64,000 nucleotides of DNA from Candidatus Saccharimonadota bacterium (GTDB taxonomy: Bacteria; Patescibacteriota; Saccharimonadia; Saccharimonadales; SLHW01): NCBI GenBank assembly GCA_050486305.1, contig JBJHDA010000002.1, forward strand, positions 10,659-74,658. Reading direction: 5' to 3'. Shown here piece by piece: positions 3,264 to 17,663 of the stretch. A program made the translations under genes and the position numbers. Each line of letters opens with the position of its first letter. The first letter of the stretch is position 1. Below the pieces are notes generated by a model. That model saw nothing but the letters and a program-made list of their open reading frames with translations, searched no databases and had not been told where the DNA came from.

Positions 3264-5186
3264 TTATACACCTGGTGACAGCCGATTATTTAAGTCAACG
3301 GTACCCTGTGTTCCCTGCATTTCGCCAGTTTGTTCTATTTGTCTTATTTGCTCAGGGTTTGTCGTGATAAGTCCGGTTTCTGTTGGGCTAGCTACAATCT
3401 GAATGTGCACGTGATTTGAGCCAGCGAAAAAGAGGCCCTGCCCAACCGGGAACTGACTGAGGCGCTTTTTCTCTTCACTGGTGAGCTTGAATACATCAGA
3501 TAACACATCGACAGCAGATGCCGATTGCTTAAGCAGAACCTGCATGGACGCATTTGCAACGATTGCTCTTCCCATACGAGACCCCATAAAATCTTCCACA
3601 TCCTGAGTAATAGTGGTGATGCCAAGGTTATATTTTCGGGCGCGCTTGGCAAGGCTAAAGAGGAAGTTTGCAGAATCTTCATATTTCATGAGTTGCCACG
3701 CCTCATCAACTACGAGCATGCGCCTCTTTTTATCAACCTTGGTTTTGTTCCATATAAAGTTTAGGACGATATACATGGCAACTGGCCGCAACTCATCCTC
3801 AAGATCGCGAATATTAAACACAACCATCGGATTATTTATGTTTACGTTGGATTGCTGGGAGAAAATGCCAGCAAAAGTACCAGTGGTGTATTTGCGAAGC
3901 CGTTGGGCAAGCTGAGGACCGAATCCCCCCATGTGTAATAGGGTGTCGTATAGGTCATTGATTGTCGGCGGGGTGGATTTATGGGTAAGCGGATCGTTTG
4001 TGATGCCTGCCTTGGAATATGTCTCAATAAGAGCTGCATCAAGGTCAGCTTCTTCTGCTGGTGTGAGCGCTGGCACGGTCGTGTTGCTTCCGCCACTCAT
4101 CTGAGCTTGTGCGCCGCCCATCATAAGCCGAAGCAGCCCGTGCAGGGTAATAAGGTTACTGCGTAGTGCGTCATCAGCCTCTTCGGTGTCGACCACCTCA
4201 GGTAAATCAAAAGGATTAATGCGCGTTGCTGAATTCAAGCTCAGGTGTACGTAGGCGCCACCGACTGCTTCTGCCATACGTTGATATTCATTTTCTGGGT
4301 CTATGATAAATACCTCAGTGCCTAGCATCATGCTGCGCAGCGCTTCAAGCTTCACAGTGAATGATTTACCAGCACCAGACTTGGCAAATACAACAGAGTT
4401 ACCGTTTTCGAGTGAGAAGCGGTCAAATATAACCAAGCCAGAGTTATGCATATTTATCCCATATAAAATGCCGTTTTCTTGCGTGAGGTCTGCAGACGTG
4501 AATGGAAAGCTTGTAGATAGTGCGCCAGTACTAAAGTTTCGCCGAATTTGCAGCTTGTCAGTAAATTGAGGTACGGTGCTATTTAGGCCTTGTTCTTGTT
4601 GTGAGGTTGCCGGCTTGGAGTAGACGAGCTGCTGGCCGAGCATAGACTCTACCTTGTGTGACACATATTCGAGCTCATCAAGCGATGAGCCATAAATCGT
4701 GAAGTAAAGGCCAAAGCGGAAAAAGCGTTCTTCTCCGACCTGCAGTTTGTCTCGCATTTCTTCTGCGTCAAGAATGGCCGCCTGCTTGCCCGGATCCCTT
4801 ACTCGGCCCTTTTCTGCTTCTATTTGGATGCCCGCCTCGAGCTGGCCGACTTTTTTACGAAGGCTCTCTAGCACTACCTGGCTTTCAACCGGGTAGATGA
4901 ACATAGACATATCCATAACCTCATCAAGGTTTATCATGCTGCTGAGCCAGCCCGTGTATATTTGCCTCGGATAGCCGTATATGTAATACGTTCTCGCATA
5001 CCGTGTGCCAATTTGGAAGTGGGTAGCGCCGAACTCTATGGAGCTTGGCGCGATGAAATCGCGTAAGGCTGTGACGCCTTTTTGAAAAGCTGCGTTGACT
5101 TCTGCTTCTTCCTTCAGTCTCTGCTGTTGAGCGAGCGCTACTGGATCTGCCTGCTGGGCTGGTTGCTTCTTTTTCCGTAAACCCAT
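3264..5186 (-). CDS. virB4: VirB4/TrbE/PrgJ-family T4SS ATPase, C-terminal (ATPase) portion of a split gene
   Basis: Walker A is GAGKS in VFAKSGAGKSFTVK. Walker B is LVVDEAWQL. Other conserved VirB4 blocks are YIYGYPRQIYTGWLS and NLGITTITQDVEDF. Start ATG overlaps the stop of the upstream ORF (TAATG). Confidence 0.85.
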   Translation of the reverse strand: MGLRKKKQPAQQADPVALAQQQRLKEEAEVNAAFQKGVTALRDFIAPSSIEFGATHFQIGTRYARTYYIYGYPRQIYTGWLSSMINLDEVMDMSMFIYPVESQVVLESLRKKVGQLEAGIQIEAEKGRVRDPGKQAAILDAEEMRDKLQVGEERFFRFGLYFTIYGSSLDELEYVSHKVESMLGQQLVYSKPATSQQEQGLNSTVPQFTDKLQIRRNFSTGALSTSFPFTSADLTQENGILYGINMHNSGLVIFDRFSLENGNSVVFAKSGAGKSFTVKLEALRSMMLGTEVFIIDPENEYQRMAEAVGGAYVHLSLNSATRINPFDLPEVVDTEEADDALRSNLITLHGLLRLMMGGAQAQMSGGSNTTVPALTPAEEADLDAALIETYSKAGITNDPLTHKSTPPTINDLYDTLLHMGGFGPQLAQRLRKYTTGTFAGIFSQQSNVNINNPMVVFNIRDLEDELRPVAMYIVLNFIWNKTKVDKKRRMLVVDEAWQLMKYEDSANFLFSLAKRARKYNLGITTITQDVEDFMGSRMGRAIVANASMQVLLKQSASAVDVLSDVFKLTSEEKKRLSQFPVGQGLFFAGSNHVHIQIVASPTETGLITTNPEQIRQIEQTGEMQGTQGTVDLNNRLSPGV

Positions 5187-6142
5187 TACTGCAGCTCCTT
5201 ATTAAGGTTTGGTTGGTTCGCTGTTCCTTGGCCTTTTGTAACGACTGGCGCTGTAAGATCATGAAAGTTCTTTAATTGCTGCCTGGTTGCTGTATCAGGA
5301 TTATAGGTGTCGTAGTAGAGCTCAATCAGCTCCTGTGTGTCTAGTGGCAATCCGGCGACACCACAGTCTTGTAGTCCACCAAGTACGGCCTGAACACGGT
5401 TTCTGAGCTCGTCTTTTGCAGCGTTCAGGTCTGACTCGTTTACTACTACGTGCTGTTCTTTTTCTCCAGCAATACTGCTTTTTATTCCCTCAAAGAAGCC
5501 CTTGCTTGATTCGACCGCACCTCTAACGCTAGCTTTTGAATAGTAAGGTATGACAACGTAAAACTTTTTATCCATAATATTGGTCTGCATAACAAGGTTC
5601 TCAATAAAGCCCAGGTAGTCGTCCATTAGCAGTGCGAGCAGCATATTGTCGTGCTCGGTCCGTATTTTATCGAGCTTTTCTATGTAGGGTCGCATATCAA
5701 CTTTTTGCGACCGGACAAAAATCTGCACATCAAAATACAGGGAATTCAAGAAGCCTTGGTAGGCAAACTCGACGCCTTCGCGTTCTTGTGGGCTCATAAG
5801 GTCGAAGTTGATGGACTTGAGCATGACGACACTCCGAAATGATCCGTCGTTCATAATAACGATACCATCACGTATCTCGGCAATTTGTAGTGTGTTTTGC
5901 GTGCTATTAGGGTTGGATTTTGTCTGTACTCTTGGCTGCTGCCCAATATTTTGTGGTGGCGCTGCACCAGGTGGAACATAGTTGCCAGTTCCAGCAACAG
6001 CCGGCTGAGCCCCGTAGGAGCCATACGGGCTTGCAGGGGCTTGTTGTTGACCTGCTGGTTGTGTTGATCCTGGTTGTGCTTGTGGCTGCCCTTGTGGCGT
6101 CTGGTAATTTTGTGTGTTTGGGTTCATGTACGAAACGCCCAC
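5186..6142 (-). CDS. VirB4 N-terminal domain protein (split virB4, first cistron) with Gln/Pro-rich low-complexity N-terminal extension
   Basis: After ~100 aa of Q/P-rich sequence comes IRDGIVIMNDGSFRSVVMLKSINFDLMSPQEREGVEFAYQGFLNSL. This is typical of the N-terminal region of PrgJ/TrsE-type VirB4 proteins (ikdGii..dGs..kvl.i.piNf). The TAA stop overlaps the ATG of the ATPase cistron. Confidence 0.55.
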   Translation of the reverse strand: MGVSYMNPNTQNYQTPQGQPQAQPGSTQPAGQQQAPASPYGSYGAQPAVAGTGNYVPPGAAPPQNIGQQPRVQTKSNPNSTQNTLQIAEIRDGIVIMNDGSFRSVVMLKSINFDLMSPQEREGVEFAYQGFLNSLYFDVQIFVRSQKVDMRPYIEKLDKIRTEHDNMLLALLMDDYLGFIENLVMQTNIMDKKFYVVIPYYSKASVRGAVESSKGFFEGIKSSIAGEKEQHVVVNESDLNAAKDELRNRVQAVLGGLQDCGVAGLPLDTQELIELYYDTYNPDTATRQQLKNFHDLTAPVVTKGQGTANQPNLNKELQ

Positions 6143-6167: not shown

Positions 6168-7382
6168 TTAATGAAGCGATACTATCACCTCGTCAGTCGA
6201 TGAACCGTCACCCGTTTTTTTGTTTGCTTGACGAGCAATCGTCTCAACGCTGAGATCATCGTTGTGTGCAAAGTTTAGTATATCAGCATTAGCGGATTGA
6301 TTTCCAGCTGTTTTATCTGTTGGAGCGTCTTTTTTGCTTTGTGTCTCTATGTTGTTTTGCGAGCTTTGCTCTGCCGTTTGTTCAGATAAGGGTTTAATTG
6401 TCTTAAGGTGGCTGTTCATCGGGTTAGGTTTTTTTTGGTTTTCATGAATTTTATCCAGTGCCGCTTGTTCTTCTGGAGTTAATTTGCTGTCAGATTTGGC
6501 CGGAGTGGGGCGTGCTGCTTGCCCTGGCGTCACAATAGGCGCTGCTTCAAATGTAGCGGTCCCGGGTGTCGTTGGGGCATGTGGCTGTCTCATGAACCAA
6601 TAGTCATTTTTTTGCTGCTGAGCTGGTTCGTCCGGTGTTGCTGTGGTAGCTTGTGATTGCTGAAGCTGCGAGACGATCTGCTGCTTGTGTTGCTGGGAAG
6701 ACTGCTCGATCATTTTCTCAAAATGTTGAGCGGTTGGGTTGTTCTGTTCATCATAAATATCATCATCAGGCTTTATGTCATATTCTGCTACCTGTTGAGG
6801 AGTAGAGGTGGGGTCTATCAGTCTATCTGACTGCCTGCTTGGGGTGAAGCTTTGGGAATTTAGGTTTACATTTACGTTTTTTACTGCCCAGCCACGGCTG
6901 TCAATCGTGTCAGCGAGTGCTCGAAGCCGACTTTTAACCTCGGTGTTGCTTAGTCCATCAGTATAGATTTTTTCTTCATGCTTTGGGACGGTTACCGTAA
7001 CAAGCTCTTTTATGCCGTCCTGGTCCCATATACGTCGCCTCGGGCGGAAGTAAAATCGGAGCTTTGCCATCATCCAAACTTCAGTCGGCTGATCTTTACT
7101 CCAGGGGAACGCCAATAAGCCAAAAAATAGCGTAGGAGGTAAGAAAACAACAAGGAGAAAAACTAACCCATTAATGACTGACCAGAATGAAAGATATCCT
7201 GTCACCATGGTAATGCAGGCAAAAATGAACTGCTTAAGTGTGAGGGGTCCGAAAAGCTTGTCTTCCGCCTCGATATCTTGAATTACTTTATACTGGCCCA
7301 TGATTAACCCAAGTATAAAATAGAAAGCAGAAAGTATAAAGCTTACGCTGCCCGATGTGTTCGTTTGGTAAAGCAAATTCAC
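6168..7382 (-). CDS. PrgI/VirB3-like T4SS membrane protein with ~270-aa Gln/Thr-rich disordered C-terminal tail
   Basis: N-terminal 2-3 TM helices carry the pattern FGPLTLKQFIF...KDQPTEVWMMAKLRFYFRPRRRIW, resembling the PrgI family (VirB3 analogue). It sits directly upstream of virB4, as in prgI-prgJ. Confidence 0.5.
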   Translation of the reverse strand: MNLLYQTNTSGSVSFILSAFYFILGLIMGQYKVIQDIEAEDKLFGPLTLKQFIFACITMVTGYLSFWSVINGLVFLLVVFLPPTLFFGLLAFPWSKDQPTEVWMMAKLRFYFRPRRRIWDQDGIKELVTVTVPKHEEKIYTDGLSNTEVKSRLRALADTIDSRGWAVKNVNVNLNSQSFTPSRQSDRLIDPTSTPQQVAEYDIKPDDDIYDEQNNPTAQHFEKMIEQSSQQHKQQIVSQLQQSQATTATPDEPAQQQKNDYWFMRQPHAPTTPGTATFEAAPIVTPGQAARPTPAKSDSKLTPEEQAALDKIHENQKKPNPMNSHLKTIKPLSEQTAEQSSQNNIETQSKKDAPTDKTAGNQSANADILNFAHNDDLSVETIARQANKKTGDGSSTDEVIVSLH

Positions 7383-8697: not shown

Positions 8698-10443
8698 TCA
8701 TAAGCTGCCACCTGTACTAGCAATTATCGAAGCCATTATTTTACCAACGGCAGTGGTGACCATTATTATCGGGAAAAACCACATCATAAGCCAAAAGGTC
8801 TTGTTCCATAGGTTCCATATACTGGTTCTTCCCGGGAATATCCAGGCCAGTATAGCCAATGGTGAAACCAACACAAGCAGCACGATAAGCGTGTGACGGA
8901 ACATAAGCAGTGCAAGAACAGCCAGGAGGGCTAGGGCAGCAACGCCAGCGAATCCTGCCAGCGTCGCGACTAGTCCTCCGCCCATTACTCCTTGTGCGGC
9001 TGCGATAGCTCCCCAGGCAACGAGACCTGATACGACGGCCTGTCCAGCAAAACTCTCTGGTGGACGCAAAACCTGCTCCAGTGTGGTGCCTGGCCCCACG
9101 TCAGGAAACGGGTACAATAATAAGTTGTGTATCCCGTAGCCTATGGCTTGTACAAAATCAACGATAAAAACAGTTATCTCAAACGATAAGGCGATGAATA
9201 TTGTAGCGACTACCATCCTTGGCAGCGCACTCTTGACCGTATAGGCGCTAATGAAGTCAAAGCCGAGGGCTGTACTTATAATCATGACTAACATTATCGG
9301 CACTAATAACAGGTATGCGATATTCCTCAGTATTGTCCACGAAGCGCGAAGCCCTTCGTGATCTTCAAAAAAACCAGGTTCAATTGCCAACAGGCTTGCC
9401 ATTCGTTCGTCTACATATCTCAGTGCGCCAGAGGCCATGGACAGCACTTGGCAAAACAGCCACGCCATGCCGCCAGCGTCCTCGCAGGTGGGGCCTCTGT
9501 CCTCATCCTCAATAGTGCCGCCAGGAGCTTCCGCGTCAGGGTTTAGTTCTTGCCAAGCGCGCACAGCCGTTAATGCTGCATCGGCGTGCCTATTCATCAA
9601 GCTCACAATACTTTCGCAGCTAAGCCTTGACCCAGCACTTCTGTCGTCTGCTGCCCTGGACCCCATACCGTAACCGACATGATGATTGCTGCTATCTACG
9701 ATAAATTTATTAGCAGGATCTGCAACCTCCGACCCGTCATTATTTATGATACGTACTGTTGCTCCGCCAGTCTGGTCCGCTCCATTGTTGCATTTTGCAA
9801 AAAAAGTATCCCGTGCAATAAAGTACTGAGCATATCCCGGCATGGTGGTGTTTGTGAAGCTTATTTCTGACCTTCGTTCCCTAAACATAGCAGCGATTAA
9901 ATCGCGGACACTGCTGTTGTTCCGGGTATTGCTGATGCCATCATTAAGCTTGTATTGTCCTGACCCTGGTTCAGTGGGGACGTACATTGCTGGCCACGAA
10001 TTACCTGTTCTGCCGCCAACAGTTTGTGGTTGGGTGAAGAAGTCTAGGATTCCGTCCCCATCACCACCGGGGCTGACCCCCGCGTATGTGAGAAGTGCCG
10101 CAGCACTACTATTACAATTGAGCGATCCGTTACCGCTACTAGACAAATGATTAGTACGATAAGAGCGACCGTCAAAGAAAATTTTTCCTTCTCGCAGCTC
10201 TGCAGTTGTCGGGTAGCTCCCAGCCGATTCACCTTTGACTGCTACTGTGCCCGCTCCCCCGTTTGTACACCAATACAAACCCCAATAGGCTTGATACGCC
10301 CTTACCATGCTAGTAGGGTGGTCGCTTCCTACGTTCTGTGGGCTGGGCCACGCATTGGCGGTGGTTGGAAGGAGGATCGAAACGGCTAATTGAAATAGTA
10401 ATAAGCCAAAAGCCGAGGCTATCCATAACCGCTTTATTTTCAT
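8698..10443 (-). CDS. VirB6/TrbL-like T4SS channel protein: signal peptide, large extracytoplasmic domain, C-terminal multi-pass TM bundle
   Basis: Signal peptide is MKIKRLWIASAFGLLLFQLAVSILLPTTANA. The C-terminal ~230 aa contain at least 5 hydrophobic helices (ILRNIAYLLLVPIMLVMIISTALG...AIAAAQGVMGGGLVATLAGFAGVAALALLAVLALLMF). Position relative to PrgI/VirB4 matches prgH-prgI-prgJ. Confidence 0.5.
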   Translation of the reverse strand: MKIKRLWIASAFGLLLFQLAVSILLPTTANAWPSPQNVGSDHPTSMVRAYQAYWGLYWCTNGGAGTVAVKGESAGSYPTTAELREGKIFFDGRSYRTNHLSSSGNGSLNCNSSAAALLTYAGVSPGGDGDGILDFFTQPQTVGGRTGNSWPAMYVPTEPGSGQYKLNDGISNTRNNSSVRDLIAAMFRERRSEISFTNTTMPGYAQYFIARDTFFAKCNNGADQTGGATVRIINNDGSEVADPANKFIVDSSNHHVGYGMGSRAADDRSAGSRLSCESIVSLMNRHADAALTAVRAWQELNPDAEAPGGTIEDEDRGPTCEDAGGMAWLFCQVLSMASGALRYVDERMASLLAIEPGFFEDHEGLRASWTILRNIAYLLLVPIMLVMIISTALGFDFISAYTVKSALPRMVVATIFIALSFEITVFIVDFVQAIGYGIHNLLLYPFPDVGPGTTLEQVLRPPESFAGQAVVSGLVAWGAIAAAQGVMGGGLVATLAGFAGVAALALLAVLALLMFRHTLIVLLVLVSPLAILAWIFPGRTSIWNLWNKTFWLMMWFFPIIMVTTAVGKIMASIIASTGGSL

Positions 10444-11089: not shown

Positions 11090-11236
11090 CTTATTGTCCC
11101 TAAACGGGCTAACATTAGCATTATGTACACTATGTTCACATAAAACCGCTCAGTTAACAAGAAGCTTATTGGTTAAATTCGGACGAGTTTTATACCAGAA
11201 GGTCTTACTAAAAGGTCTACAATGGGCATGATGAAA

Positions 11237-12604
11237 CTACAGGCTTTCGGTGCCGAGGTTCTGCTCATCACCTCTTTTTATCCAGATTTCTTGATCTGGA
11301 GCAAAGCTAGACATGTTTTCTGCTGAGGTGGTTGTTTTTTCAAACTCTAGTACATGTATGAACGCGGTATCATTGTCTGGGTGATTAATGGGCGACCAGT
11401 CAAGATTCATCTTAACCTGTATGCTCATATGGTTTTCGTCGGATTGCCAAGCGTCTACAATTTCCCAACCGTGCTTTATGAAGTAAGGCTCTTCGCCTCT
11501 TTCAGCGCGCCCTTCTCGATGCCCTCTCGTGTACTCGGTGTTTGTTTGTATTAACCGTCTGGCATTTTCGATAGTACGTTCAGCGCCTGGCGTGTTCCCA
11601 AACATAGCCTCAAGACATGTGCTTTCTATGTGAAAGTTATGCGAGTTTAATATGCATGACCTGTTTTGCAAATACTGATAGAGTAGTTCTTCTGGGTTGT
11701 CAGCCGTCATCAGTACGGGCTCATTCTCTTGGTTGATTACCTCTGGGCTGCGAAGCGAAGGGTATTGCGACTCACTTATGGGACCTGAGTGATCTTCAGG
11801 GCTATCGGCTTCTGTGTCATCGATGACTATGTCATCTGTTTCTTCTGTAGAAGATGGCCTATCCTCTTTGTCTAATGGAGGCTGGTCAGTGCGATCAAGC
11901 ATATCTTGCTCTCTATCTGCCAAATTTTGATCAACTTCTTCTTCAGGAGGAGTCGCTTCGGCATCTGAGGGTTCTGATGCGCTTCCTCCGAACGCAATTG
12001 CCGCTGCTGCTGCGACTCCCGCCACACCGGCTGCTAGTCCGCCATACCCGAGCAACTTCTTCCGTTTTTTGACGCTGGTGCTTTCTGTCGGCACTGCTTC
12101 ATCGTTTGGCTGCGCTTCAAGAGTTGTGCTCGGAGCTGTTGCTGCAAGCTGCTGATCTTGACCCTGTTGGTCTTGCGTTTGTTCTTGCGTTTGTTCTTGC
12201 GTTGCATGTTCCCCGGTAGTCGAATCAGAGGCATTCTCCCTTTGACCCACTGAAGAACTAGCGTCTTCGGGGGTATTTTCCGGTAATGGCGGGGGTGTAT
12301 TCGCAAATTCCTCTTCGTCTGCAGCGCCCAGCACGTCGCCAGGACTACTTGGAGCAAGCCTGACAGATTCTTCGGCCCACTGCTTCCATGGGTCGCTGAA
12401 CTCATCGCCTGAGGGTGAAGTGTTTGGCGTATTTTCAGGTATTTGTTCGTCTGTTGGATTTTGCGGTTGCGCCTCAACGACAGTGTCTCCAGGCGCTGGG
12501 AGTTGTTCGGATGTTTCTGGGCCATACACTTCTGTTGGCTTTTCCGTTGGGTTAGCCTCTTGACCCTCTTGTACTGGTGACAAATTTTCTTCAGGAGTAC
12601 TCAT
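11237..12604 (-). CDS. Hypothetical acidic Pro/Glu/Gln-rich protein with central TM helix
   Basis: ORF track lists 11237..12661. The Met at 12604 (MSTPEENLSP) has an AAGGA Shine-Dalgarno 9 nt upstream and is the likelier start. TM helix is LLGYGGLAAGVAGVAAAAAIAFGG. An internal 12-bp tandem repeat encodes QEQTQEQTQDQ. Confidence 0.45.
   Translation of the reverse strand: MSTPEENLSPVQEGQEANPTEKPTEVYGPETSEQLPAPGDTVVEAQPQNPTDEQIPENTPNTSPSGDEFSDPWKQWAEESVRLAPSSPGDVLGAADEEEFANTPPPLPENTPEDASSSVGQRENASDSTTGEHATQEQTQEQTQDQQGQDQQLAATAPSTTLEAQPNDEAVPTESTSVKKRKKLLGYGGLAAGVAGVAAAAAIAFGGSASEPSDAEATPPEEEVDQNLADREQDMLDRTDQPPLDKEDRPSSTEETDDIVIDDTEADSPEDHSGPISESQYPSLRSPEVINQENEPVLMTADNPEELLYQYLQNRSCILNSHNFHIESTCLEAMFGNTPGAERTIENARRLIQTNTEYTRGHREGRAERGEEPYFIKHGWEIVDAWQSDENHMSIQVKMNLDWSPINHPDNDTAFIHVLEFEKTTTSAENMSSFAPDQEIWIKRGDEQNLGTESL
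12171..12206. repeat. 12-bp tandem repeat (tcttgcgtttgt x ~3) inside the 11237..12604 CDS
   Basis: Seen directly. Encodes QEQT repeats on the minus strand. Confidence 0.7.
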
Positions 12605-12719
12605 AGATAATATTTTCCTTGCTATGTAAATACTATAACATATAAAAAAAGAAATGTCCATATAGTTTACTTTTTTGCAAGATTAAATTAATGTTAAGAT
12701 TGATATAAGAAATATAAAA

Positions 12720-13325
12720 ATGAAAGCACTGAAACTCCTTAAGCACCCTACACTAGTAATATTATGTCTTCTTCTGCTGCTCACTGTTGTGGTTATTGCT
12801 TCATCTCTACCAGCTGGTGTATCTGCTCAATCCGGAAGGAGCAGCGACAGAGAAATAGCTGCGGCTGTCTGCCAAGATAATCCTGATGCGCAAGTCTCTC
12901 CCGTTACGTGGGAAGAGTGTATAGAAAGGACCGTACGAAGCCTGAATAGACAGTGTGATTTTAGTCCGCATTCTGAGGCTTGGGCGAGCTGTAGGCAGCA
13001 GTTTTTGGACTCTAATGTCGCTTCATCAGGGTCTGGGATTTCAACCACCCAGCTGAACGCTGATTGTTCAGAGCAACCGTTAACTCCTGACAACTGCGGC
13101 ATAATCGGCTACATTAGAATAATAACGGACGGTCTGACGGTTATTGTGGGTATAGTGGTTGTGATGATGCTCATTGTCGGAGGCATACAATATTCATCTG
13201 CAGGCAGCAACCCTCAGGCGGTAACAGCGGCTAAAAAGAGAATTTCTCAGGCGTTGTTTGCTCTTGTGATATACATATTCTTATTTGCATTCTTGCAATG
13301 GATTGTGCCAGGAGGGGTGTTTTAA
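12720..13325 (+). CDS. VirB2/TrbC-like T4SS pilin paralogue 1 (long Cys-containing variable ectodomain)
   Basis: N-terminal signal/TM. C-terminal block LTVIVGIVVVMMLIVGGIQYSSAGSNPQAVTAAKKRISQALFALVIYIF matches the family motif h-IMII-GG-x-Y-x-SGGD-x-AK-x-TILYA-IGLV shared by all seven genes. Confidence 0.5.
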   Translation: MKALKLLKHPTLVILCLLLLLTVVVIASSLPAGVSAQSGRSSDREIAAAVCQDNPDAQVSPVTWEECIERTVRSLNRQCDFSPHSEAWASCRQQFLDSNVASSGSGISTTQLNADCSEQPLTPDNCGIIGYIRIITDGLTVIVGIVVVMMLIVGGIQYSSAGSNPQAVTAAKKRISQALFALVIYIFLFAFLQWIVPGGVF

Positions 13326-13328
13326 GCA

Positions 13329-13769
13329 ATGATTCAAAGGCTCTTTATATTCAGCATCATCAGCACTTCCTTTATTGTTGCGGCAGTATTCTTTATGCCG
13401 CAGCAACAAGTATCAGCTTGCGACGACCGTGGGACATTCCTGTCTTTTCCCAGATGGTACGAATATCTGGAGGTTGACAGCGAATGCAATGTGAGTGCTA
13501 TTCGGTATGATGGTGGTTCAGGAGAGATTAATCTGGGAGCAACTGTCGGCGCTATACTTCTTGCTGTGACGGAGATACTCTTAAGAGTGTCCGGGATAGT
13601 CGCCGTAGGCTTTATTGTTTATGGAGGCGTTCAGTTCACGATGAGCCAAGGAGCTCCTGACAGGCTGCAGGCATCTAAACAGATTATTATGAATGGCATC
13701 ATCGGTTTGGTTATTGCAGTTTTGGCTGTGGCTATCGTTAACCTAGTGAGCAATATAGTGGTAGGGTGA
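13329..13769 (+). CDS. VirB2/TrbC-like T4SS pilin paralogue 2
   Basis: C-terminal block IVAVGFIVYGGVQFTMSQGAPDRLQASKQIIMNGIIGLVIAVLAV. It starts 4 nt after the previous gene. Confidence 0.5.
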   Translation: MIQRLFIFSIISTSFIVAAVFFMPQQQVSACDDRGTFLSFPRWYEYLEVDSECNVSAIRYDGGSGEINLGATVGAILLAVTEILLRVSGIVAVGFIVYGGVQFTMSQGAPDRLQASKQIIMNGIIGLVIAVLAVAIVNLVSNIVVG

Positions 13770-13773
13770 GATT

Positions 13774-14061
13774 ATGGAACTTCGAAAATTATTCGCTAAC
13801 ATAGAAGGAACGTTCGATGGTGTTAATATCCCAGAGGCTGGTACTGACGGCTCCATTGAGGCTGCGGTTGGCTTTTTCTTTATCCTAGCCGGGATTATAG
13901 CGGTTATCATGATAATTCTTGGCGGCTACTGGTATGTATTGTCTGGCGGTGATCCGCAAAAGACCAAAAAAGCCAAAGACACGATTCTGTATGCCGTAAT
14001 TGGACTAGTCATATCTATCAGTGCCTGGATAATCGTAGGGTTTGTCTTAGCGAGCACGTAA
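13774..14061 (+). CDS. VirB2/TrbC-like T4SS pilin paralogue 3 (no cleavable signal peptide)
   Basis: C-terminal block IIAVIMIILGGYWYVLSGGDPQKTKKAKDTILYAVIGLVISI. Confidence 0.55.
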   Translation: MELRKLFANIEGTFDGVNIPEAGTDGSIEAAVGFFFILAGIIAVIMIILGGYWYVLSGGDPQKTKKAKDTILYAVIGLVISISAWIIVGFVLAST

Positions 14062-14450
14062 TGATGAAAAAACTCCTATTAACATTCACTGCCCTGCTTG
14101 CGCCAGTTTTATTTTTTGCTACGGCGGCAGCGAATGTAAATCCACTGGAAGACGTCTGTCGTGAAGCTCCGAATTCAGCAGTCTGCATTGAAGAGCGAGC
14201 TACCCGAGGGCAAGACAGTACGGATAACCGTGTTGTTAGTTTTCTAGGAGAAGTGGTGAGAATCATGCTGTTTGCACTTGGGGCCATAGCGGTAGTTGCG
14301 GTGATGGTAGGCGCGCTGATGTATGTATTGTCCGGTGGCGACCCAGCAAAAACACAAAAAGCAAAGACTACTATTTTGTATGCACTCATCGGCGTAGTGA
14401 TAGCCACCGTTGCTCAATTGATAATACTGTTCGTTTTAGATAGACTATAG
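14061..14450 (+). CDS. VirB2/TrbC-like T4SS pilin paralogue 4
   Basis: Signal peptide, then AIAVVAVMVGALMYVLSGGDPAKTQKAKTTILYALIGVVIATVAQLI. Start overlaps the previous stop. Confidence 0.55.
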   Translation: MMKKLLLTFTALLAPVLFFATAAANVNPLEDVCREAPNSAVCIEERATRGQDSTDNRVVSFLGEVVRIMLFALGAIAVVAVMVGALMYVLSGGDPAKTQKAKTTILYALIGVVIATVAQLIILFVLDRL

Positions 14451-14487
14451 ATAAAATAATAAGAATCACAGGAGCAAAACACACAAA

Positions 14488-14898
14488 ATGGAAAACATAA
14501 TCAAGCAAACCATACACAGTAAGCCGATCCAGCTTATTCTGCTCGGGGCTATTGTTGCCGCGTTGCTGGTAGTACTCATGCCTGAGGTAGGCTTTACGCA
14601 AGCGAGTGAAGTTCGCCAAGGCATAGGCGCGACTGGTGTAGATACGACCGAGGGTGAGGCTAGATCGGGCATTAACTCGCTGATTCAGACGACCATAAAC
14701 ATCATTTCTTGGATTGTAGGTATCATATCGGTCATCATGATCATCATCGGCGGACTTAAGTACATAATGTCTACCGGAGATTCGCAAAAAGTAGATTCGG
14801 CAAAGAATACCATTCTCTACGCCGTTATTGGTCTTGTTATTGTGGCGTTTGCACAGATAATCGTATTGTTTGTTCTCGACACAACCACAGGTAACTAA
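14488..14898 (+). CDS. VirB2/TrbC-like T4SS pilin paralogue 5
   Basis: C-terminal block IISVIMIIIGGLKYIMSTGDSQKVDSAKNTILYAVIGLVIVAFAQII. Confidence 0.55.
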   Translation: MENIIKQTIHSKPIQLILLGAIVAALLVVLMPEVGFTQASEVRQGIGATGVDTTEGEARSGINSLIQTTINIISWIVGIISVIMIIIGGLKYIMSTGDSQKVDSAKNTILYAVIGLVIVAFAQIIVLFVLDTTTGN

Positions 14899-14978
14899 CG
14901 ATGATAGTTCGTCTACAACTTCAGTCATAGCGCTAGGTCTAGTTGACGCAGAAAAGCCATAAGTGTATAACTTAAGCA

Positions 14979-15398
14979 ATGAAAGGAACGAATAAAATGA
15001 AAAAGAATCTAACAACACTACTCGTAAGCGCCTTGTTTGTGCTCGGCCTGGCAGCGCCACTAGCGCTTGTGTCAGCTACACCCGCCTCTGCACAGAGTGG
15101 AATCGCAGAGAACTTAGATGCGGGGGCACAACGTACGGATCCTGATGCTGACCCGGATGCTGAGGAGCGAGTGAATCAGATTATCGTGACAGTGATAAAT
15201 ATTTTTTCACTTGTTGTGGGTGTGATATCCGTCATCATGATTATCATCGGTGGCTTGAAGTACATCACCTCTGGCGGTGACTCAGGCAACGTAACGAGCG
15301 CTAAGAACACTATTCTTTACGCAATCATCGGTCTTGTTGTGGTGGCGCTAGCTCAGATAATCGTACGGTTTGTCATAGAGCGCGTTACAAACGCATAG
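14979..15398 (+). CDS. VirB2/TrbC-like T4SS pilin paralogue 6
   Basis: Signal peptide (possible start at the internal Met at 14997, MKKNLTT). C-terminal block VISVIMIIIGGLKYITSGGDSGNVTSAKNTILYAIIGLVVVALAQII. The 3' 130 bp are identical to paralogue 7. Confidence 0.55.
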   Translation: MKGTNKMKKNLTTLLVSALFVLGLAAPLALVSATPASAQSGIAENLDAGAQRTDPDADPDAEERVNQIIVTVINIFSLVVGVISVIMIIIGGLKYITSGGDSGNVTSAKNTILYAIIGLVVVALAQIIVRFVIERVTNA

Positions 15399-15427
15399 CC
15401 TCGAAAAGCTAACAGCACAAAAAAATT

Positions 15428-15458
15428 GCCACCGCGGAAACGCGGTGGCTTTCTTTTT
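15428..15458 (+). terminator. Rho-independent terminator after pilin paralogue 6
   Basis: gccaccgcg-gaaa-cgcggtggc is a perfect 9-bp stem. It is followed by tttcttttt. Confidence 0.7.
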
Positions 15459-15473
15459 GTCAGGCTTTGTTAC

Positions 15474-15502
15474 TTGCATAAGTTACATATAAGTGGTATA
15501 AT
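15474..15502 (+). promoter_or_regulatory. Sigma-70-type promoter for pilin paralogue 7
   Basis: TTGCAT (15474-15479), 17-nt spacer, TATAAT (15497-15502). GAGGA ribosome-binding site lies ~12 nt before the ATG at 15543. Confidence 0.55.
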
Positions 15503-15542
15503 GTATAATGCGCATAATTGCGTGTGAGGAGCTATAAGCTGC

Positions 15543-15935
15543 ATGAAAAACACACTACTTTTTATCACGGCTGTTGCTGGACTATTGCTGACGCTTCTAG
15601 CAGTACCTGGTGATACAGTTGCTGCACAGAGCAATATAACAGAGGGCCTCACTCGAGGAGCTGAATTGACAGATCCGGATGCCGAAACTGTAAGTCCTGA
15701 GGATCAAGTAAACGCAATTATTTCTACAATCATTAATCTGTTTTCGCTTGTGGTCGGAGTTGTATCCGTCATCATGATTATCATCGGTGGCTTGAAGTAC
15801 ATCACCTCTGGCGGTGACTCAGGCAACGTAACGAGCGCTAAGAACACTATTCTTTACGCAATCATCGGTCTTGTTGTGGTGGCGCTAGCTCAAGTGATTG
15901 TTCGATTCGTACTTGCCCGTATTACGGGTGCTTAG
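15543..15935 (+). CDS. VirB2/TrbC-like T4SS pilin paralogue 7
   Basis: Signal peptide. C-terminal block VVSVIMIIIGGLKYITSGGDSGNVTSAKNTILYAIIGLVVVALAQVI. Confidence 0.55.
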   Translation: MKNTLLFITAVAGLLLTLLAVPGDTVAAQSNITEGLTRGAELTDPDAETVSPEDQVNAIISTIINLFSLVVGVVSVIMIIIGGLKYITSGGDSGNVTSAKNTILYAIIGLVVVALAQVIVRFVLARITGA

Positions 15936-15963
15936 TAGTAGTCGTTCCTGTATAAATATAAAT

Positions 15964-16002
15964 ACACCCTCTGCAGCGATGCATAAGAGGGTGTATTTTG
16001 TT
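15964..16002. terminator. Hairpin terminator between convergent pilin-7 and hsp20 genes
   Basis: acaccctct-N13-agagggtgt is a 9-bp stem. It is followed by attttgtt on plus and by an AT-rich run on minus. Confidence 0.5.
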
Positions 16003-16015
16003 GCTAGAGGTTTGC

Positions 16016-16495
16016 TTAGTTAATTTGGATTTTCTTAACCGTGTCTTGTTTTACCTTTGTAAAACTGATGGTAAGAACCCCATCCTTTAAGACAGCTTCT
16101 ACTTCTTCTTCCTTTACAGGAACTGGCAAAGCAATACTTCTGCTGAATTCTCCCCAGTAGCACTCCTGCACGAAGTAATTTTCTACGTCCTCTTCTGTGC
16201 CAGCGGAAAGTGTGCCGCGAATGCTGACCGTATTGTCGGCAATACTGACATCAAGCTCTTGCTTGTTTACACCGGCAGTCCGTGCCTTAACTATGAGCTT
16301 TTCCTTCGTTTCATAAACGTCAACAGCGAGTTGGCCTGGAACAGCTTCTTCTTCATCCCAGTCATCTGTTGCTTCAGTCGTTTGTTGGTCCTGACCTGTT
16401 TCGTCGTCGGCCGGTGCAAGTTCTTCATCGTCAAGAAAGGCGGCAGTTAGCTCATCTTCCATCAATAAATCCTCGTCGCGATTTTTGCGCGCCAT
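16016..16495 (-). CDS. Hsp20/alpha-crystallin family small heat-shock protein
   Basis: Alpha-crystallin domain blocks: VKARTAGVNKQELDVSIADNTVSIRG and GEFSRSIALPVPVKEEEVEAVLKDGVLTISFTK. The acidic N-terminal extension is atypical. Confidence 0.75.
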   Translation of the reverse strand: MARKNRDEDLLMEDELTAAFLDDEELAPADDETGQDQQTTEATDDWDEEEAVPGQLAVDVYETKEKLIVKARTAGVNKQELDVSIADNTVSIRGTLSAGTEEDVENYFVQECYWGEFSRSIALPVPVKEEEVEAVLKDGVLTISFTKVKQDTVKKIQIN

Positions 16496-16624: not shown

Positions 16625-17302
16625 ATGATTTTACTGGATAAGCTTATATCAATCATTGCGCCCACATTATGTGTACGCTGCAGCAAAGAAGGATCAGTTG
16701 TTTGTGCATGGTGCTCTCCAGAGCTGATTCCGCTTATAGCAGAGCGGTGCATAAGCTGTAATGCTTTATCCGAAAACTCCCGGACCTGCAAGGACTGCCG
16801 TCGGAAACACAAGTTGCCGAAGCATGTCTGGACACGTTCAGTTTATGAGGATTTTTCGAAGCTATTACTCGGGAGGCTTAAGTTTCAGCGATCTGGTGCA
16901 ACAGCAAAGGTACTGGCATCTCTCATGGCAGAACCCCTGCCCTATTTGTCTGACGACACGCTAATTACTCATGTGCCGACTTCTCCTGCCCGTATTCGGC
17001 AGCGTGGCTACGATCAATCAAGGCTGCTTGCGAAGGAGCTAGCAAAGCAAAATAACGTCCGCTATACGGCGATGCTGAGCAGGTTATCGAATGTTCGGCA
17101 GGTTGGATCATCACGTATTGAAAGAAAAAAGCAACTACAGGGTGCATTTTACTTAAAGCGGGTTTCTGTACCGAAAAAGACACCGATTTTATTAGTTGAT
17201 GATATTTATACAACAGGAGGCACATTGTCTGCGGCGACAGTGACGCTAAGACAGGCTGGGTACAAAAATGTGAATGCAGTCGTTTTTGCGAAGGTGCTGT
17301 AG
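16625..17302 (+). CDS. comFC: ComFC-family phosphoribosyltransferase-domain protein (competence protein F)
   Basis: N-terminal double CxxC zinc ribbons (CVRC...CAWC...CISC...CKDC). C-terminal PRTase motif is LLVDDIYTTGGTLSAA. Confidence 0.75.
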   Translation: MILLDKLISIIAPTLCVRCSKEGSVVCAWCSPELIPLIAERCISCNALSENSRTCKDCRRKHKLPKHVWTRSVYEDFSKLLLGRLKFQRSGATAKVLASLMAEPLPYLSDDTLITHVPTSPARIRQRGYDQSRLLAKELAKQNNVRYTAMLSRLSNVRQVGSSRIERKKQLQGAFYLKRVSVPKKTPILLVDDIYTTGGTLSAATVTLRQAGYKNVNAVVFAKVL

Positions 17303-17573: not shown

Positions 17574-17663
17574 TGGCGGAAGGGGTGGGATTCGAACCCA
17601 CGGTACCGTTTCCGGCACGCTTGTTTTCAAGACAAGTACCATAAACCACTCGGTCACCCTTCC
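17574..17663 (-). tRNA. tRNA-Ser (anticodon UGA), type II with long variable arm, CCA encoded
   Basis: Reverse complement is GGAAGGGTGACCGAGTGG...CTTGT-CTTGAAA-ACAAG...GGTTCGAATCCCACCCCTTCCGCCA. Anticodon loop CTTGAAA gives anticodon TGA. Confidence 0.8.

What the first reader, a model, noticed from the sequence alone, without database searches (positions are those of the whole stretch)
12720..15935. Tandem array of seven paralogous VirB2/TrbC-like pilin genes with a hypervariable exposed region
All seven ORFs (95-201 aa) end in the same ~55-aa module: TM1 ending in IMIIxGG, loop Y-x-SGGD-x5-AK-x-T, and TM2 ILYAxIGLV. Upstream of that module each has a different signal peptide and a 25-100-aa variable, often acidic or Cys-containing, region. 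This is the topology of T4SS pilins. Seven divergent copies arranged head-to-tail are reminiscent of surface-antigen variation cassettes. The last copy at least has its own promoter and terminator, and the array sits divergently from the secretion operon. In a host-attached episymbiont this could provide alternative pilus tips or adhesins.
Basis: partly seen in the sequence, partly recalled or inferred. Interest (0 to 1): 0.8.

Follow-up and report, generated by a model that had tools for sequence, protein, structure and literature searches.

The report
Saccharibacterial type IV secretion pilin array
The seven tandem genes are real and belong to the pilin-like gene array of the Saccharibacteria type IV secretion system, which is already published and essential in a cultured relative, so this is a new example of a known feature and not a new kind of antigen-variation cassette bank.

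Summary
Seven same-strand ORFs (12720-15935) all pass the Pfam gathering cut-off for PF18895 (T4SS_pilin). They lie divergent to a VirB4/PrgI-type secretion operon.

Two details are wrong. Copy 3 has no signal peptide, and the strict motif fits copies 3-7 only.

The kind is already published:
- Six essential pilins, SEML1_0014-0019, in Southlakia epibionticum (Wang 2023), with the same Hsp20/comFC/tRNA-Ser neighbours.
- 441 arrays of 2-11 pilins across Patescibacteria (Quinonero-Coronel 2025).

In 80 related Saccharibacteria loci the array is a conserved, ordered set of six old paralogues. Two-fold cross-validated position assignment was correct in 265 of 270 cases. The window reads 1-2-3-4-5-6-6: only the last gene is duplicated, and this is the second commonest layout.

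That argues against a cassette bank for copies 1-5.

The following I did not find in the papers I read:
- Gene 6 has its own conserved promoter-like site (53 of 77 spacers).
- Genes 1-4 overlap.
- Copies 6 and 7 share a 130-nt perfectly identical tract inside otherwise synonymously diverged DNA (p = 7e-12). This indicates gene conversion, and it recurs in other genomes.

Best reading: non-redundant subunits of one T4SS-dependent surface structure, with gene 6 as the major subunit. Interest is low to moderate.

The parts
12720..13325 (+). Pilin-like gene 1 (array position 1), 201 aa. It has a signal peptide, a Cys-rich helical head of about 60 aa, a flexible linker and the C-terminal two-helix module.
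   Evidence: PF18895 27.3 bits. Position-1 HMM 154 bits against 44 or less for the other positions. AF2 mean pLDDT 75.9: helices 43-103 have block-mean pLDDT 87-94, a low-confidence linker spans 105-113, and the hairpin covers 127-198. Cys 79, 91, 116 and 126 are at least 90% conserved among relatives.
13329..13769 (+). Pilin-like gene 2 (position 2), 146 aa, with a signal peptide and 2 Cys.
   Evidence: PF18895 32.4 bits. Position-2 HMM 129 bits against 52 or less for the others. Best BLAST hit is position 2 in 46 of 46 six-gene arrays.
13774..14061 (+). Pilin-like gene 3 (position 3), 95 aa. It is leaderless, with a short N-tail and the two-helix module.
   Evidence: PF18895 54.6 bits. It is the only copy above the NCBIfam NF045849 (Mbov_0395 pilin-like) cut-off, 42.3 against 40 bits. 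It has no N-terminal hydrophobic segment, and only 9% of position-3 orthologues have one. Position-3 HMM 101 bits against 86.
14061..14450 (+). Pilin-like gene 4 (position 4), 129 aa, with a signal peptide and 2 Cys. Its start overlaps the stop of gene 3.
   Evidence: PF18895 31.9 bits. Position-4 HMM 110 bits against 94.
14488..14898 (+). Pilin-like gene 5 (position 5), 136 aa.
   Evidence: PF18895 50.0 bits; PF04956 TrbC 27.5 bits, just under its 27.9 cut-off. Position-5 HMM 144 bits against 127.
14943..14971 (+). Promoter-like site TTGACG-17-TATAAC in the spacer between genes 5 and 6.
   Evidence: Read from the sequence and scored. The motif TTGNNN-N16-18-TANAAN occurs in 53 of 77 5>6 spacers of related loci (shuffles: mean 4.7, maximum 10), mostly 27-39 nt upstream of the ORF.
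14979..15398 (+). Pilin-like gene 6 (position 6, first copy). The maximal ORF is 139 aa. The likely true start is ATG 14997 (133 aa), which has AAAGGA 9 nt upstream.
   Evidence: PF18895 50.9 bits. Position-6 HMM 174 bits against 159. The database protein from the same 120,797-bp contig is 133 aa (P0009). Sequence.
15226..15355 (+). 130-nt tract in gene 6 that is 100% identical to 15763-15892 in gene 7 (end of helix 1, loop, helix 2). Interpreted as a gene-conversion tract.
   Evidence: Inside the tract 0 of 42 same-residue codons differ synonymously; just outside it 18 of 23 do (Fisher p = 7e-12). The tract is only 73-81% identical to the closest orthologues.
15428..15459 (+). Intrinsic-terminator-like hairpin (9 bp, 8 GC) plus U-tract after gene 6. 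An A-tract lies upstream, so it could act in both directions.
   Evidence: Fold of 15399-15470: -29.4 kcal/mol, z = -4.7.
15482..15509 (+). Promoter-like site GTTACA-16-TATAAT upstream of gene 7.
   Evidence: Best-scoring site in the scan, 10 of 12 matches.
15543..15935 (+). Pilin-like gene 7 (position 6, second copy), 130 aa. It looks like a monocistronic unit.
   Evidence: PF18895 57.3 bits. Position-6 HMM 169 bits against 150. 68% identical to gene 6. AF2 pLDDT 78: leader helix 3-19, short helix 32-43, long helices 52-88 and 93-128.
15763..15892 (+). Partner of the 130-nt identical tract, in gene 7.
15960..16003 (+). Hairpin plus U-rich tract after gene 7, lying between gene 7 and the convergent Hsp20 gene.
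   Evidence: Fold of 15936-16015: -27.7 kcal/mol, z = -3.9. A terminator-like hairpin follows the last array gene in 68 of 79 related loci.
8698..10443 (-). Polytopic membrane protein (581 aa, leader plus at least 5 C-terminal hydrophobic segments). It occupies the place held in S. epibionticum by the divergent neighbour that Foldseek annotates as TrbL/VirB6.
   Evidence: Hydropathy. Homologues sit a median of 312 nt upstream of the array, on the opposite strand, in 57 loci. SEML1_0013 annotation.
6168..7382 (-). PrgI-domain (VirB3-like) membrane protein, 404 aa.
   Evidence: PF12666 42.4 bits against a 27 cut-off. Conserved upstream of the array in 47 loci.
3264..6142 (-). VirB4-like ATPase (3264-5186) and a weak TrsD/VirB4-N-like protein (5186-6142).
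   Evidence: NF045971 CD1110-family VirB4, 356 bits against a 325 cut-off; P-loop_TraG 98 bits. The 318-aa protein hits TrsD at E = 2.5e-5, below its cut-off.

Best explanation
The seven genes encode the pilin-like subunits (Pfam PF18895, VirB2/TrbC superfamily) of the chromosomal, monoderm-type (VirB4/PrgI) type IV secretion system of a Saccharibacterium. The locus has the same layout as the essential six-pilin array SEML1_0014-0019 of Southlakia epibionticum.

Shown here:
- The array is a conserved, ordered set of six ancient paralogues, positions 1-6.
- The window has one extra copy of position 6.
- Genes 1-4 overlap and gene 5 follows closely.
- Gene 6 has its own conserved promoter-like site.
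- The array ends in a terminator-like hairpin.
- Copies 6 and 7 exchange sequence by gene conversion over the helix-loop-helix core, while their mature N-terminal parts stay different.

Inferred mechanism:
- Six of the seven products are inserted by Sec and lose a leader. Copy 3 inserts without one.
- Each sits in the membrane as a helical hairpin with the basic loop in the cytoplasm and both ends outside.
- The VirB4-driven machine extracts them into one heteromeric surface structure, a pilus or conduit that touches the host cell.
- The position-6 protein is the major, separately transcribed subunit. Positions 1-5 are minor, co-translated, non-redundant parts. Position 1, with its Cys-rich head, is the best candidate for a tip or adhesin.
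- Duplicated position-6 genes provide two outer surfaces on one core, and conversion keeps that core compatible.
For: Family:
- All seven pass the PF18895 cut-off.
- 42 of 47 position-6 relatives also hit PF04956 TrbC/VirB2 at E <= 1e-3.
- 40 of 40 position-3 and 47 of 47 position-6 relatives hit the Mycoplasma ICE pilin-like family NF045849.

Context:
- VirB4 of the CD1110 family is above its cut-off, and a PrgI-domain protein is present.
- The layout is VirB4..PrgI..membrane protein (-), then the array (+), then Hsp20 (-), then ComF (+). It is conserved in 32-78 of the 80 loci depending on the gene.
- It matches SEML1_0013-0022 in S. epibionticum, where all six pilins are called GD/ES/ES, that is essential.

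Ordered paralogues:
- Window copies map to positions 1,2,3,4,5,6,6.
- Two-fold cross-validation was correct in 265 of 270 cases.
- 18 untrained seven-gene arrays read 1234566, and one ten-gene array reads 1234566666.

Operon shape:
- Median gaps are -4, -4, -4, 10 and 74 nt, and a terminator-like hairpin follows the last gene in 68 of 79 loci.
- A promoter-like motif occurs in 53 of 77 5>6 spacers, against a shuffle maximum of 10.

Major-subunit inference:
- Position 6 is the most conserved, with 68% module identity against 42-49% for the others.
- It is the only position that is commonly duplicated.

Conversion:
- The 130-nt identical tract gives p = 7e-12.
- Similar mosaics occur in L025, L008, L030 and L032.
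- There is no general nucleotide constraint on the tract.

Co-assembly hint:
- In-frame fusions of positions 2+3 (L067, L070) and 1+2 (L079) exist.

Fold:
- AF2 gives a helical hairpin after the leader.
Against: - No pilus made of these proteins has been seen in any Saccharibacterium. The papers read call it a possibility only.
- None of the seven copies reaches the PF04956 cut-off.
- Essentiality of the upstream genes in the Tn-seq could partly reflect polar effects in an operon (my inference).
- The major/minor assignment, the topology and the leader cleavage rest on hydropathy heuristics and analogy. No expression or protein data are available here.
- The promoters and terminators are consensus matches only.
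- The fusions could be frameshift errors in MAGs.
Confidence: 0.7

Rival explanations
1. Membrane-resident channel parts, not a pilus. The pilin-like hairpins stay in the cytoplasmic membrane and line or gate the T4SS translocon, as may be the case for the Mbov_0395-type proteins of Mycoplasma ICEs. No extracellular filament is made.
For: - Monoderm T4SSs are generally described as lacking pili.
- All position-3 and position-6 relatives match the Mycoplasma ICE family NF045849, and copy 3 passes its cut-off.
- The VirB4 is of the monoderm CD1110 type.
- Copy 3 has no leader.
- No structural match to solved pilus subunits was significant.
Against: - Six of the seven have leader-like N-termini and exported, variable, Cys-containing regions. 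These make more sense on a surface.
- Position 6 is separately promoted and duplicated, as expected for an abundant structural subunit.
- 42 of 47 position-6 relatives hit the TrbC/VirB2 pilin family.
Confidence: 0.2
2. Variation cassette bank. The copies are alternative, interchangeable surface variants. They are expressed differentially or recombined to change the exposed face of the pilus for host range or evasion.
For: - The pre-module regions are very variable.
- Copy 7 has its own promoter-like site and terminators.
- Gene conversion does occur between copies 6 and 7 and between the equivalent pairs in other genomes.
- The copy number of position 6 varies from 1 to 5.
- The same speculation is made in PMC12102498.
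Against: - Positions 1-5 are conserved one-to-one and in a fixed order across the sampled Saccharimonadales.
- Genes 1-4 overlap as in a coupled operon.
- All copies are complete genes. There are no silent partial cassettes, no inverted repeats around a promoter, and no recombinase among the neighbours scanned.
- All six are individually essential in S. epibionticum.
- The conversion tracts homogenise the conserved core and do not move variable segments.
Confidence: 0.08
3. Artefact or unrelated small membrane proteins. Either the tandem copies come from misassembly of strain variants, or the module is a holin-like or other membrane family with no link to secretion.
For: - The 130-nt exact repeat is about the size of assembler k-mers, so a mis-join cannot be formally excluded without reads (my inference).
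- Weak chance hits to cytochrome bd subunit II occur.
Against: - The flanks of copies 6 and 7 differ from each other.
- The 1234566 layout recurs in at least 18 independent assemblies, including long contigs.
- All seven pass PF18895.
- There are no holin or other PHROG matches with an annotated function.
- The link to the T4SS operon is conserved.
Confidence: 0.02

Closest known systems
Essential pilin array of Southlakia epibionticum ML1, SEML1_0014-0019 (Wang et al. 2023, Cell; PMC10633639)
   Same: - Tandem same-strand PF18895 genes.
- Divergent from a - strand T4SS operon with PrgI and VirB4.
- Followed by Hsp20 (-), comFC (+) and tRNA-Ser.
- Lengths of the last four genes (103, 126, 127, 138 aa) resemble positions 3-6 here (95, 129, 136, 133 aa).
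   Different: - Seven genes here, because position 6 is duplicated.
- Genes 1 and 2 differ in length (201 and 146 aa here, 132 and 185 aa in ML1).
- The window has extra genes (10568-11089 and 11237-12661) between the membrane protein and the array.
- One-to-one orthology with the ML1 proteins was not tested, because their sequences were not fetched.
VirB2-like pilin arrays of Patescibacteria (Quinonero-Coronel et al. 2025, Microb Genom; PMC12102498)
   Same: That paper reports 441 arrays of 2-11 pilin genes in 383 assemblies, especially in Saccharimonadia, found with PF18895 and PF04956. Mean identity within an array was about 25%, and host-range or antigenic variation was proposed.
   Different: - The paper reports a maximum within-array identity of 54%. 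Copies 6 and 7 here are 68% identical, and 84% in the module.
- A term search of its main text found no mention of orthologues, gene duplication or gene conversion. I read no discussion there of fixed gene order or a promoter before the last gene.
TrbC/VirB2 conjugative pilins of diderm T4SSs (Pfam PF04956; F-pilus TraA, T-pilus VirB2)
   Same: - A leader followed by a two-helix hydrophobic hairpin with a short basic loop.
- Encoded next to a VirB4 ATPase.
- Sub-threshold PF04956 hits for five of the seven copies, and hits at E <= 1e-3 for 42 of 47 position-6 relatives.
   Different: - No copy reaches the PF04956 cut-off.
- The host is a monoderm, and no VirB5, VirB7, VirB9 or VirB10 was recognised in the neighbours scanned.
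- There are six distinct paralogues in place of one major pilin.
- A filament is not demonstrated.
Mbov_0395 family pilin-like conjugal transfer protein of Mycoplasma ICEs (NCBIfam NF045849)
   Same: A short two-helix protein of a monoderm conjugation system. Copy 3 passes the family cut-off (42.3 against 40 bits), and all position-3 and position-6 relatives tested match at E <= 1e-3.
   Different: - Six of the seven window copies are below the cut-off.
- It was not checked here whether the Mycoplasma ICEs carry one such gene or several.
- The Saccharibacterial system lacks a recognised relaxase according to PMC10633639.
Tandem VirB2 paralogues of Bartonella and Anaplasma (as cited in PMC12102498)
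   Same: Several divergent VirB2 copies in tandem in a host-associated bacterium, with surface variation proposed.
   Different: Here positions 1-5 are fixed orthologues, essential in a relative, and not a variable family. Only the terminal gene varies in number. No direct sequence comparison was done.

Membership tests
Pfam PF18895 T4SS_pilin | Whole-protein score at or above the curated gathering cut-off (26.6 bits) | tested here: met
   The scores are 27.3, 32.4, 54.6, 31.9, 50.0, 50.9 and 57.3 bits for copies 1-7. Copy 1 is only just above the cut-off.
Pfam PF18895 T4SS_pilin | Two hydrophobic helices joined by a short polar, basic loop at the C-terminus | tested here: met
   Hydropathy shows two C-terminal hydrophobic segments in every copy. 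AF2 gives helices 52-88 and 93-128 in copy 7 and 127-160 and 165-198 in copy 1. The loop Lys is invariant (K172 in copy 1 numbering).
Pfam PF04956 TrbC/VirB2 pilin | Score at or above the gathering cut-off (27.9 bits) | tested here: not met
   The best is copy 5 at 27.5 bits. Copies 6, 7, 4 and 3 score 23.6, 22.4, 18.5 and 16.6 bits, and copies 1 and 2 have no hit. 42 of 47 position-6 relatives match at E <= 1e-3, with a best E of 4.5e-8. The relationship is at superfamily level, not family membership.
Pfam PF04956 TrbC/VirB2 pilin | Cleavable N-terminal leader before the mature pilin | tested here: inconclusive
   Six of the seven have an N-terminal hydrophobic segment followed by an AxA-like site, read by eye. 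Copy 3 has none. No dedicated signal-peptide predictor was available and no cleavage data exist.
Pfam PF04956 TrbC/VirB2 pilin | Polymerises into an extracellular conjugative pilus (with bound lipid in the solved examples) | not testable with these tools
Saccharibacterial T4SS pilin array (type: S. epibionticum SEML1_0014-0019) | At least six tandem same-strand PF18895 genes, divergent from the T4SS operon | tested here: met
   The same layout occurs in 45 six-gene and about 22 seven-gene arrays among the 80 loci.
Saccharibacterial T4SS pilin array (type: S. epibionticum SEML1_0014-0019) | Downstream neighbours Hsp20 (opposite strand), comFC-like gene, tRNA-Ser | tested here: met
   In the window: HSP20 at 16016-16495 (-), ComF-like phosphoribosyltransferase at 16625-17302 (+), tRNA-Ser at 17574-17663. 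In ML1: SEML1_0020-0022. Hsp20 lies downstream on the opposite strand in 78 of 80 loci.
Saccharibacterial T4SS pilin array (type: S. epibionticum SEML1_0014-0019) | Each pilin gene required for epibiotic growth | not testable with these tools
   This is known only for ML1, from Tn-seq. The organism of the window is uncultured.
Antigenic-variation cassette systems (expression site plus silent donor copies) | Truncated or promoterless donor cassettes feeding one expression locus | tested here: not met
   All seven are full ORFs with start codons. Genes 1-4 overlap in operon style. Apart from the terminator hairpin, the only inverted repeat was a 14-nt pair 1.5 kb apart, which is probably chance.
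Antigenic-variation cassette systems (expression site plus silent donor copies) | Rapid turnover of copy content between related genomes | tested here: not met
   Positions 1-5 are conserved one-to-one (265 of 270 in cross-validation). Only position 6 varies, from 1 to 5 copies.
Antigenic-variation cassette systems (expression site plus silent donor copies) | Gene conversion that transfers variable segments between copies | tested here: inconclusive
   Conversion is demonstrated between copies 6 and 7, but the tracts cover the conserved core or the leader, not the variable part.
NCBIfam NF045849 Mbov_0395 pilin-like conjugal transfer protein | Score at or above the 40-bit cut-off | tested here: inconclusive
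   Copy 3 passes at 42.3 bits. The other six score 22.0-37.9 bits.
Phage holins / unrelated small membrane proteins | Match to a holin or other non-secretion family | tested here: not met
   There is no holin family in Pfam at E <= 1. PHROGs gave only two hits, at E of about 0.005, to families of unknown function.

The most novel reading that the evidence does not exclude
The six ordered paralogues build a heteromeric, T4SS-driven pilus in a monoderm bacterium, which would be the first of its kind. The separately promoted terminal gene encodes the major subunit. Lineage-specific duplicates of that gene (copies 6 and 7 here) are alternative major subunits with different outer surfaces. Recurrent gene conversion keeps their packing core identical, so that either can enter the same lattice. 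This would be a concerted-evolution route to varying host or phage recognition.
Probability: 0.25. Interest if true: 0.65.

Novelty: new member of a known kind. Interest (0 to 1): 0.3.

Why it matters
The role of the T4SS in Saccharibacteria is an open question. The system is essential for epibiotic growth, but its substrate and its structure are unknown (PMC11665869, PMC12857230).

This window does not change that picture, because it is one more example of the published pilin array. The comparative results do give concrete handles for experiments in the cultured species:
- a fixed order of six paralogues;
- overlapping genes 1-4;
- a dedicated promoter-like site for the last gene;
- a leaderless third gene;
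- duplication restricted to the last gene;
- gene conversion that keeps the core identical while the exposed N-terminus differs.

They suggest which gene is probably the major subunit, which genes are minor, and which residues are free to vary.

Tried and rejected
- **PDB sequence search.** A profile search of PDB sequences returned only cytochrome bd subunit II at E = 0.029. I treat this as a hydrophobic chance match. It also explains the 'cytochrome bd subunit 2' names that JGI gives some homologues.
- **Source record.** The look-up of encoding contigs for the window's own protein returned nothing. The cluster look-up gave no accession or name. The source record is therefore unknown, beyond a 120,797-bp NCBI contig.
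- **Best-BLAST-hit assignment.** This was misleading for copies 3-5, because the highly conserved position-6 proteins attract hits. I replaced it with position-specific HMMs and cross-validation.
- **First BLAST script.** It timed out and was rerun.
- **Recent duplication of copies 6/7.** Rejected as the cause of the identical tract, because synonymous sites just outside it are near saturation.
- **Nucleotide-level constraint on the tract.** Rejected, because the closest orthologues are only 73-81% identical there.
- **Holins.** Rejected.
- **L078 two-module ORF.** This is an N-masked gap, not a fusion.

Full report
**1. What is in the sequence**

Between 12720 and 15935 there are seven ORFs on the + strand, of 201, 146, 95, 129, 136, 139 and 130 aa. 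All seven score above the curated gathering cut-off of Pfam PF18895 (T4SS_pilin, 26.6 bits). The scores are 27.3, 32.4, 54.6, 31.9, 50.0, 50.9 and 57.3 bits, and each match lies in the C-terminal ~70 residues. Five of them also give sub-threshold hits to PF04956 (TrbC/VirB2), the best being 27.5 bits against a 27.9 cut-off.

An HMM built from the shared module finds exactly these seven ORFs in the 64-kb window. Each copy has two C-terminal hydrophobic helices separated by a short Lys-containing loop.

AlphaFold2 on copy 7 with 46 relatives gives mean pLDDT 78. It predicts a leader helix, a short helix, and two long helices at 52-88 and 93-128.

- Copy 3 has no N-terminal hydrophobic leader. 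This is a property of its whole orthologous group: only 9% have one, against 91-100% for positions 1, 4, 5 and 6.
- The literal motif (IMIIxGG, SGGD, AKxT, ILYAxIGLV) fits copies 3-7. Copies 1 and 2 carry a degenerate form, and only six module columns are invariant.

**2. Surroundings**

The array is divergent from a - strand operon (848-12661). That operon contains:
- a VirB4-like ATPase above the cut-off of the monoderm CD1110 family (356 bits against 325);
- a weak TrsD/VirB4-N-like protein;
- a PrgI-domain (VirB3-like) protein;
- a 581-aa polytopic membrane protein.

Downstream are an Hsp20 gene on the - strand, a ComF-like phosphoribosyltransferase and a tRNA-Ser.

A strong hairpin plus U-tract lies between copies 6 and 7 (15428-15449). 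The best promoter-like site of the region (GTTACA-16-TATAAT, 15482-15509) precedes copy 7, and a second hairpin plus U-tract follows it.

**3. Organism and prior knowledge**

Copy 7 has 7028 relatives at E <= 0.001 in the protein collection. Seventy-eight of the 80 best genomic loci come from Saccharibacteria/Saccharimonadales MAGs or from bins labelled only 'bacterium' or 'Patescibacteria group'. The other two, L023 and L074, are labelled Pirellulales and Burkholderiaceae and are probably mis-binned.

The feature is already described in three papers.
- Wang et al. [quoted passage not shown]
- Their Tables S1 and S2 list SEML1_0014-0019 as six PF18895 proteins of 132, 185, 103, 126, 127 and 138 aa, all on one strand and all called GD/ES/ES in Tn-seq. 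A TrbL/VirB6-like gene precedes them on the other strand, and Hsp20, comFC (K02242) and tRNA-Ser follow. This is the layout of the window.
- Quinonero-Coronel et al. 2025 (PMC12102498) report 441 VirB2-like arrays of 2-11 genes in 383 Patescibacteria assemblies. Identity within an array averaged 25% with a maximum of 54%. They raise the antigenic-variation and host-range idea.
- A 2025 review repeats this and calls a pilus an 'intriguing possibility'.

**4. What the comparison of 80 loci adds**

I called ORFs in the loci and located the module with an HMM. The modal array has six genes with a stable length order, with medians of 214, 137, 98, 132, 137 and 138 aa.

Position-specific HMMs trained on six-gene arrays, with the window excluded, gave these results for the window copies:

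| Window copy | Assigned position | Score (bits) | Best other position (bits) |
|---|---|---|---|
| 1 | 1 | 154 | 44 or less |
| 2 | 2 | 129 | 52 or less |
| 3 | 3 | 101 | 86 |
| 4 | 4 | 110 | 94 |
| 5 | 5 | 144 | 127 |
| 6 | 6 | 174 | 159 |
| 7 | 6 | 169 | 150 |

In two-fold cross-validation 265 of 270 genes were assigned to their own position. Eighteen seven-gene arrays that were not used for training read 1234566, and one ten-gene array reads 1234566666.

The array is thus a fixed set of six old paralogues, and growth happens almost only by copying the last gene. The window shows the second commonest layout.

The neighbours are conserved too. Hsp20 follows on the opposite strand in 78 of 80 loci, ComF in 74, and the membrane protein precedes the array in 57.

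**5. Operon shape**

Median distances between consecutive genes are -4, -4, -4, 10 and 74 nt. ORF starts were taken as the first possible start codon, so these are lower bounds. Genes 1-4 therefore overlap in the ATGA style, while gene 6 is set apart.

The 5>6 spacer carries a TTGNNN-N16-18-TANAAN motif in 53 of 77 loci. Shuffles gave a mean of 4.7 and a maximum of 10. The motif lies mostly 27-39 nt upstream of the ORF.

In the window this site is TTGACG-17-TATAAC at 14943-14971. Its distance fits a start at ATG 14997, which has AAAGGA 9 nt upstream. The database protein from the same contig is 133 aa, which agrees with that start.

A terminator-like hairpin follows the last gene in 68 of 79 loci.

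Position 6 is also the most conserved, with 68% module identity among orthologues against 42-49% for the other positions. I infer that it is the abundant, major subunit and that positions 1-5 are minor parts made in coupled amounts. This is an inference from gene organisation, not a measurement.

**6. Gene conversion between copies 6 and 7**

The two genes share a 130-nt stretch of perfect identity (15226-15355 and 15763-15892). It covers the end of helix 1, the loop and most of helix 2.

Within the last 76 codons, none of the 42 same-residue codons inside the tract differs synonymously. Just outside it, 18 of 23 do (Fisher p = 7e-12). The duplication is therefore old and the tract is recent.

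The tract is only 73-81% identical to the closest orthologues elsewhere, so a general constraint on the nucleotides does not explain it.

The same mosaic appears independently in other genomes:
- L025: the whole module is identical (226 nt) while the N-terminus is unrelated.
- L008: the leader and the module are identical while the mature N-terminus and the C-tail have diverged.
- L030: a 95-nt identical tract.
- L032: an 89-nt identical tract.

In solved conjugative pili such as the F pilus (established knowledge, not tested here), the two termini face outward and the inter-helix loop faces the lumen. By that analogy conversion keeps the packing core uniform while the exposed parts differ.

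A term search of PMC12102498 found no mention of gene conversion, duplication or orthologues. The other papers I read did not raise these points in the passages I examined. The 68% identity of copies 6 and 7 exceeds the 54% maximum reported in that paper.

**7. Other details**

Position 1 proteins carry a long, very variable exported region, only 7% identical among orthologues. It has conserved Cys residues at 79, 91, 116 and 126 in copy 1 numbering. AF2 models residues 43-103 of copy 1 as a confident small helical bundle (block-mean pLDDT 87-94) joined by a low-confidence linker to the hairpin. It has no significant structural match. It is the natural candidate for a tip or adhesin, but that is only a guess.

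In three other genomes neighbouring genes are fused in frame: positions 2+3 in L067 and L070, and positions 1+2 in L079. If these fusions are real, they suggest that neighbouring paralogues sit together with the same membrane orientation. They could also be frameshift errors.

All position-3 and position-6 relatives tested match the Mycoplasma ICE family NF045849 ('Mbov_0395 pilin-like conjugal transfer protein'), and copy 3 passes its cut-off. This is a lead that pilin-like proteins may already belong to monoderm conjugation systems and need not have been borrowed from diderm systems as PMC12102498 considers. I did not pursue it.

**8. Explanations weighed**

- **Best explanation (0.7).** Non-redundant subunits of one T4SS-dependent surface structure, with a separately expressed major subunit that is sometimes duplicated.
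- **Main rival (0.2).** The proteins never leave the membrane and form part of the translocon. Monoderm T4SSs are not known to make pili, and the structure searches could not tie these proteins to solved pilus subunits.
- **Cassette-bank idea (0.08).** This fails for positions 1-5 and survives only in a weak form for the 6/7 pair.
- **Artefact or unrelated membrane family (0.02).** Very unlikely.

**9. Verdict**

However, the object is the published Saccharibacterial T4SS pilin array, so the window adds a new member of a known kind.

The additions from this analysis are modest:
- the ordered orthology of the six positions;
- duplication restricted to the terminal gene;
- the conserved promoter-like site before gene 6;
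- the leaderless third gene;
- the recurrent conversion tracts.

They could help design experiments on a system whose function is still open. Interest is 0.3.

Noticed in passing
window 7500-10443 (- strand): The membrane protein upstream of the array looks split. A 581-aa ORF (8698-10443) is followed by an overlapping 407-aa ORF in another frame (7500-8723; a more likely start is the ATG near 8657). Homologues of the 581-aa part have a median length of 922 aa in 57 related loci. This could be a frameshift, a real split, or a variable C-terminal half, since the 407-aa part has no BLAST hit in the loci.
   Followed up: partly
window 10568-12661 (- strand): Two genes lie between the membrane protein and the array only in this genome. 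One is 173 aa with a leader. The other is 474 aa, acidic and rich in Pro/Glu/Thr/Gln, with one hydrophobic segment. Neither has a homologue in the 80 loci at E <= 1e-5, and neither has a Pfam or NCBIfam hit. In other genomes the membrane protein ends about 312 nt from the array.
   Followed up: partly
L067 8455-9117; L070 124-825; L079 7921-8724: Single ORFs that hold two complete pilin modules in array order: positions 2+3, 2+3 and 1+2. These are either natural gene fusions or frameshift errors in MAGs.
   Followed up: partly
L025 2875-3766; L008 9426-10435; L030 9482-10396; L032 1178-2076: Duplicated position-6 genes in other Saccharibacteria show the same mosaic as window copies 6 and 7. 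Perfectly identical DNA (89-226 nt) covers the module, and in L008 also the leader, next to strongly diverged N-terminal regions.
   Followed up: yes
L074 (labelled Burkholderiaceae MAG) 1179-6690; L023 (labelled Pirellulales MAG): L074 carries a ten-gene array reading 1234566666, the largest seen. Both contigs sit in bins of unrelated phyla, so they are probably mis-binned Saccharibacteria contigs.
   Followed up: no
window 17574-20122: There is a cluster of four tRNA genes just downstream of the ComF-like gene: Ser-TGA, Ser-GCT, Arg-GCG and Ser-CGA. A 122-aa ORF at 17905-18273 overlaps tRNA-Ser-GCT and is probably not a gene.
   Followed up: no
window 1-14000: Cumulative GC skew reaches its minimum at about 10-12 kb, near the divergent junction between the T4SS operon and the array. 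This may only reflect the switch in coding strand. PMC12102498 notes that T4SS clusters often lie near dnaA, which was not looked for in the window.
   Followed up: no
window 14018-15060 (- strand): Two long antisense ORFs, of 129 and 224 aa, overlap pilin genes 4-6. They are very probably not genes, because homology strongly supports coding on the + strand.
   Followed up: no
window 13774-14061 and A5 alignment: Position-3 proteins have no leader. They share an invariant Pro (P20 of copy 3, usually in an I/L-P motif) in the short N-tail, preceded by a weakly hydrophobic 'A-Q-I/L' stretch. The meaning of this is unknown.
   Followed up: partly
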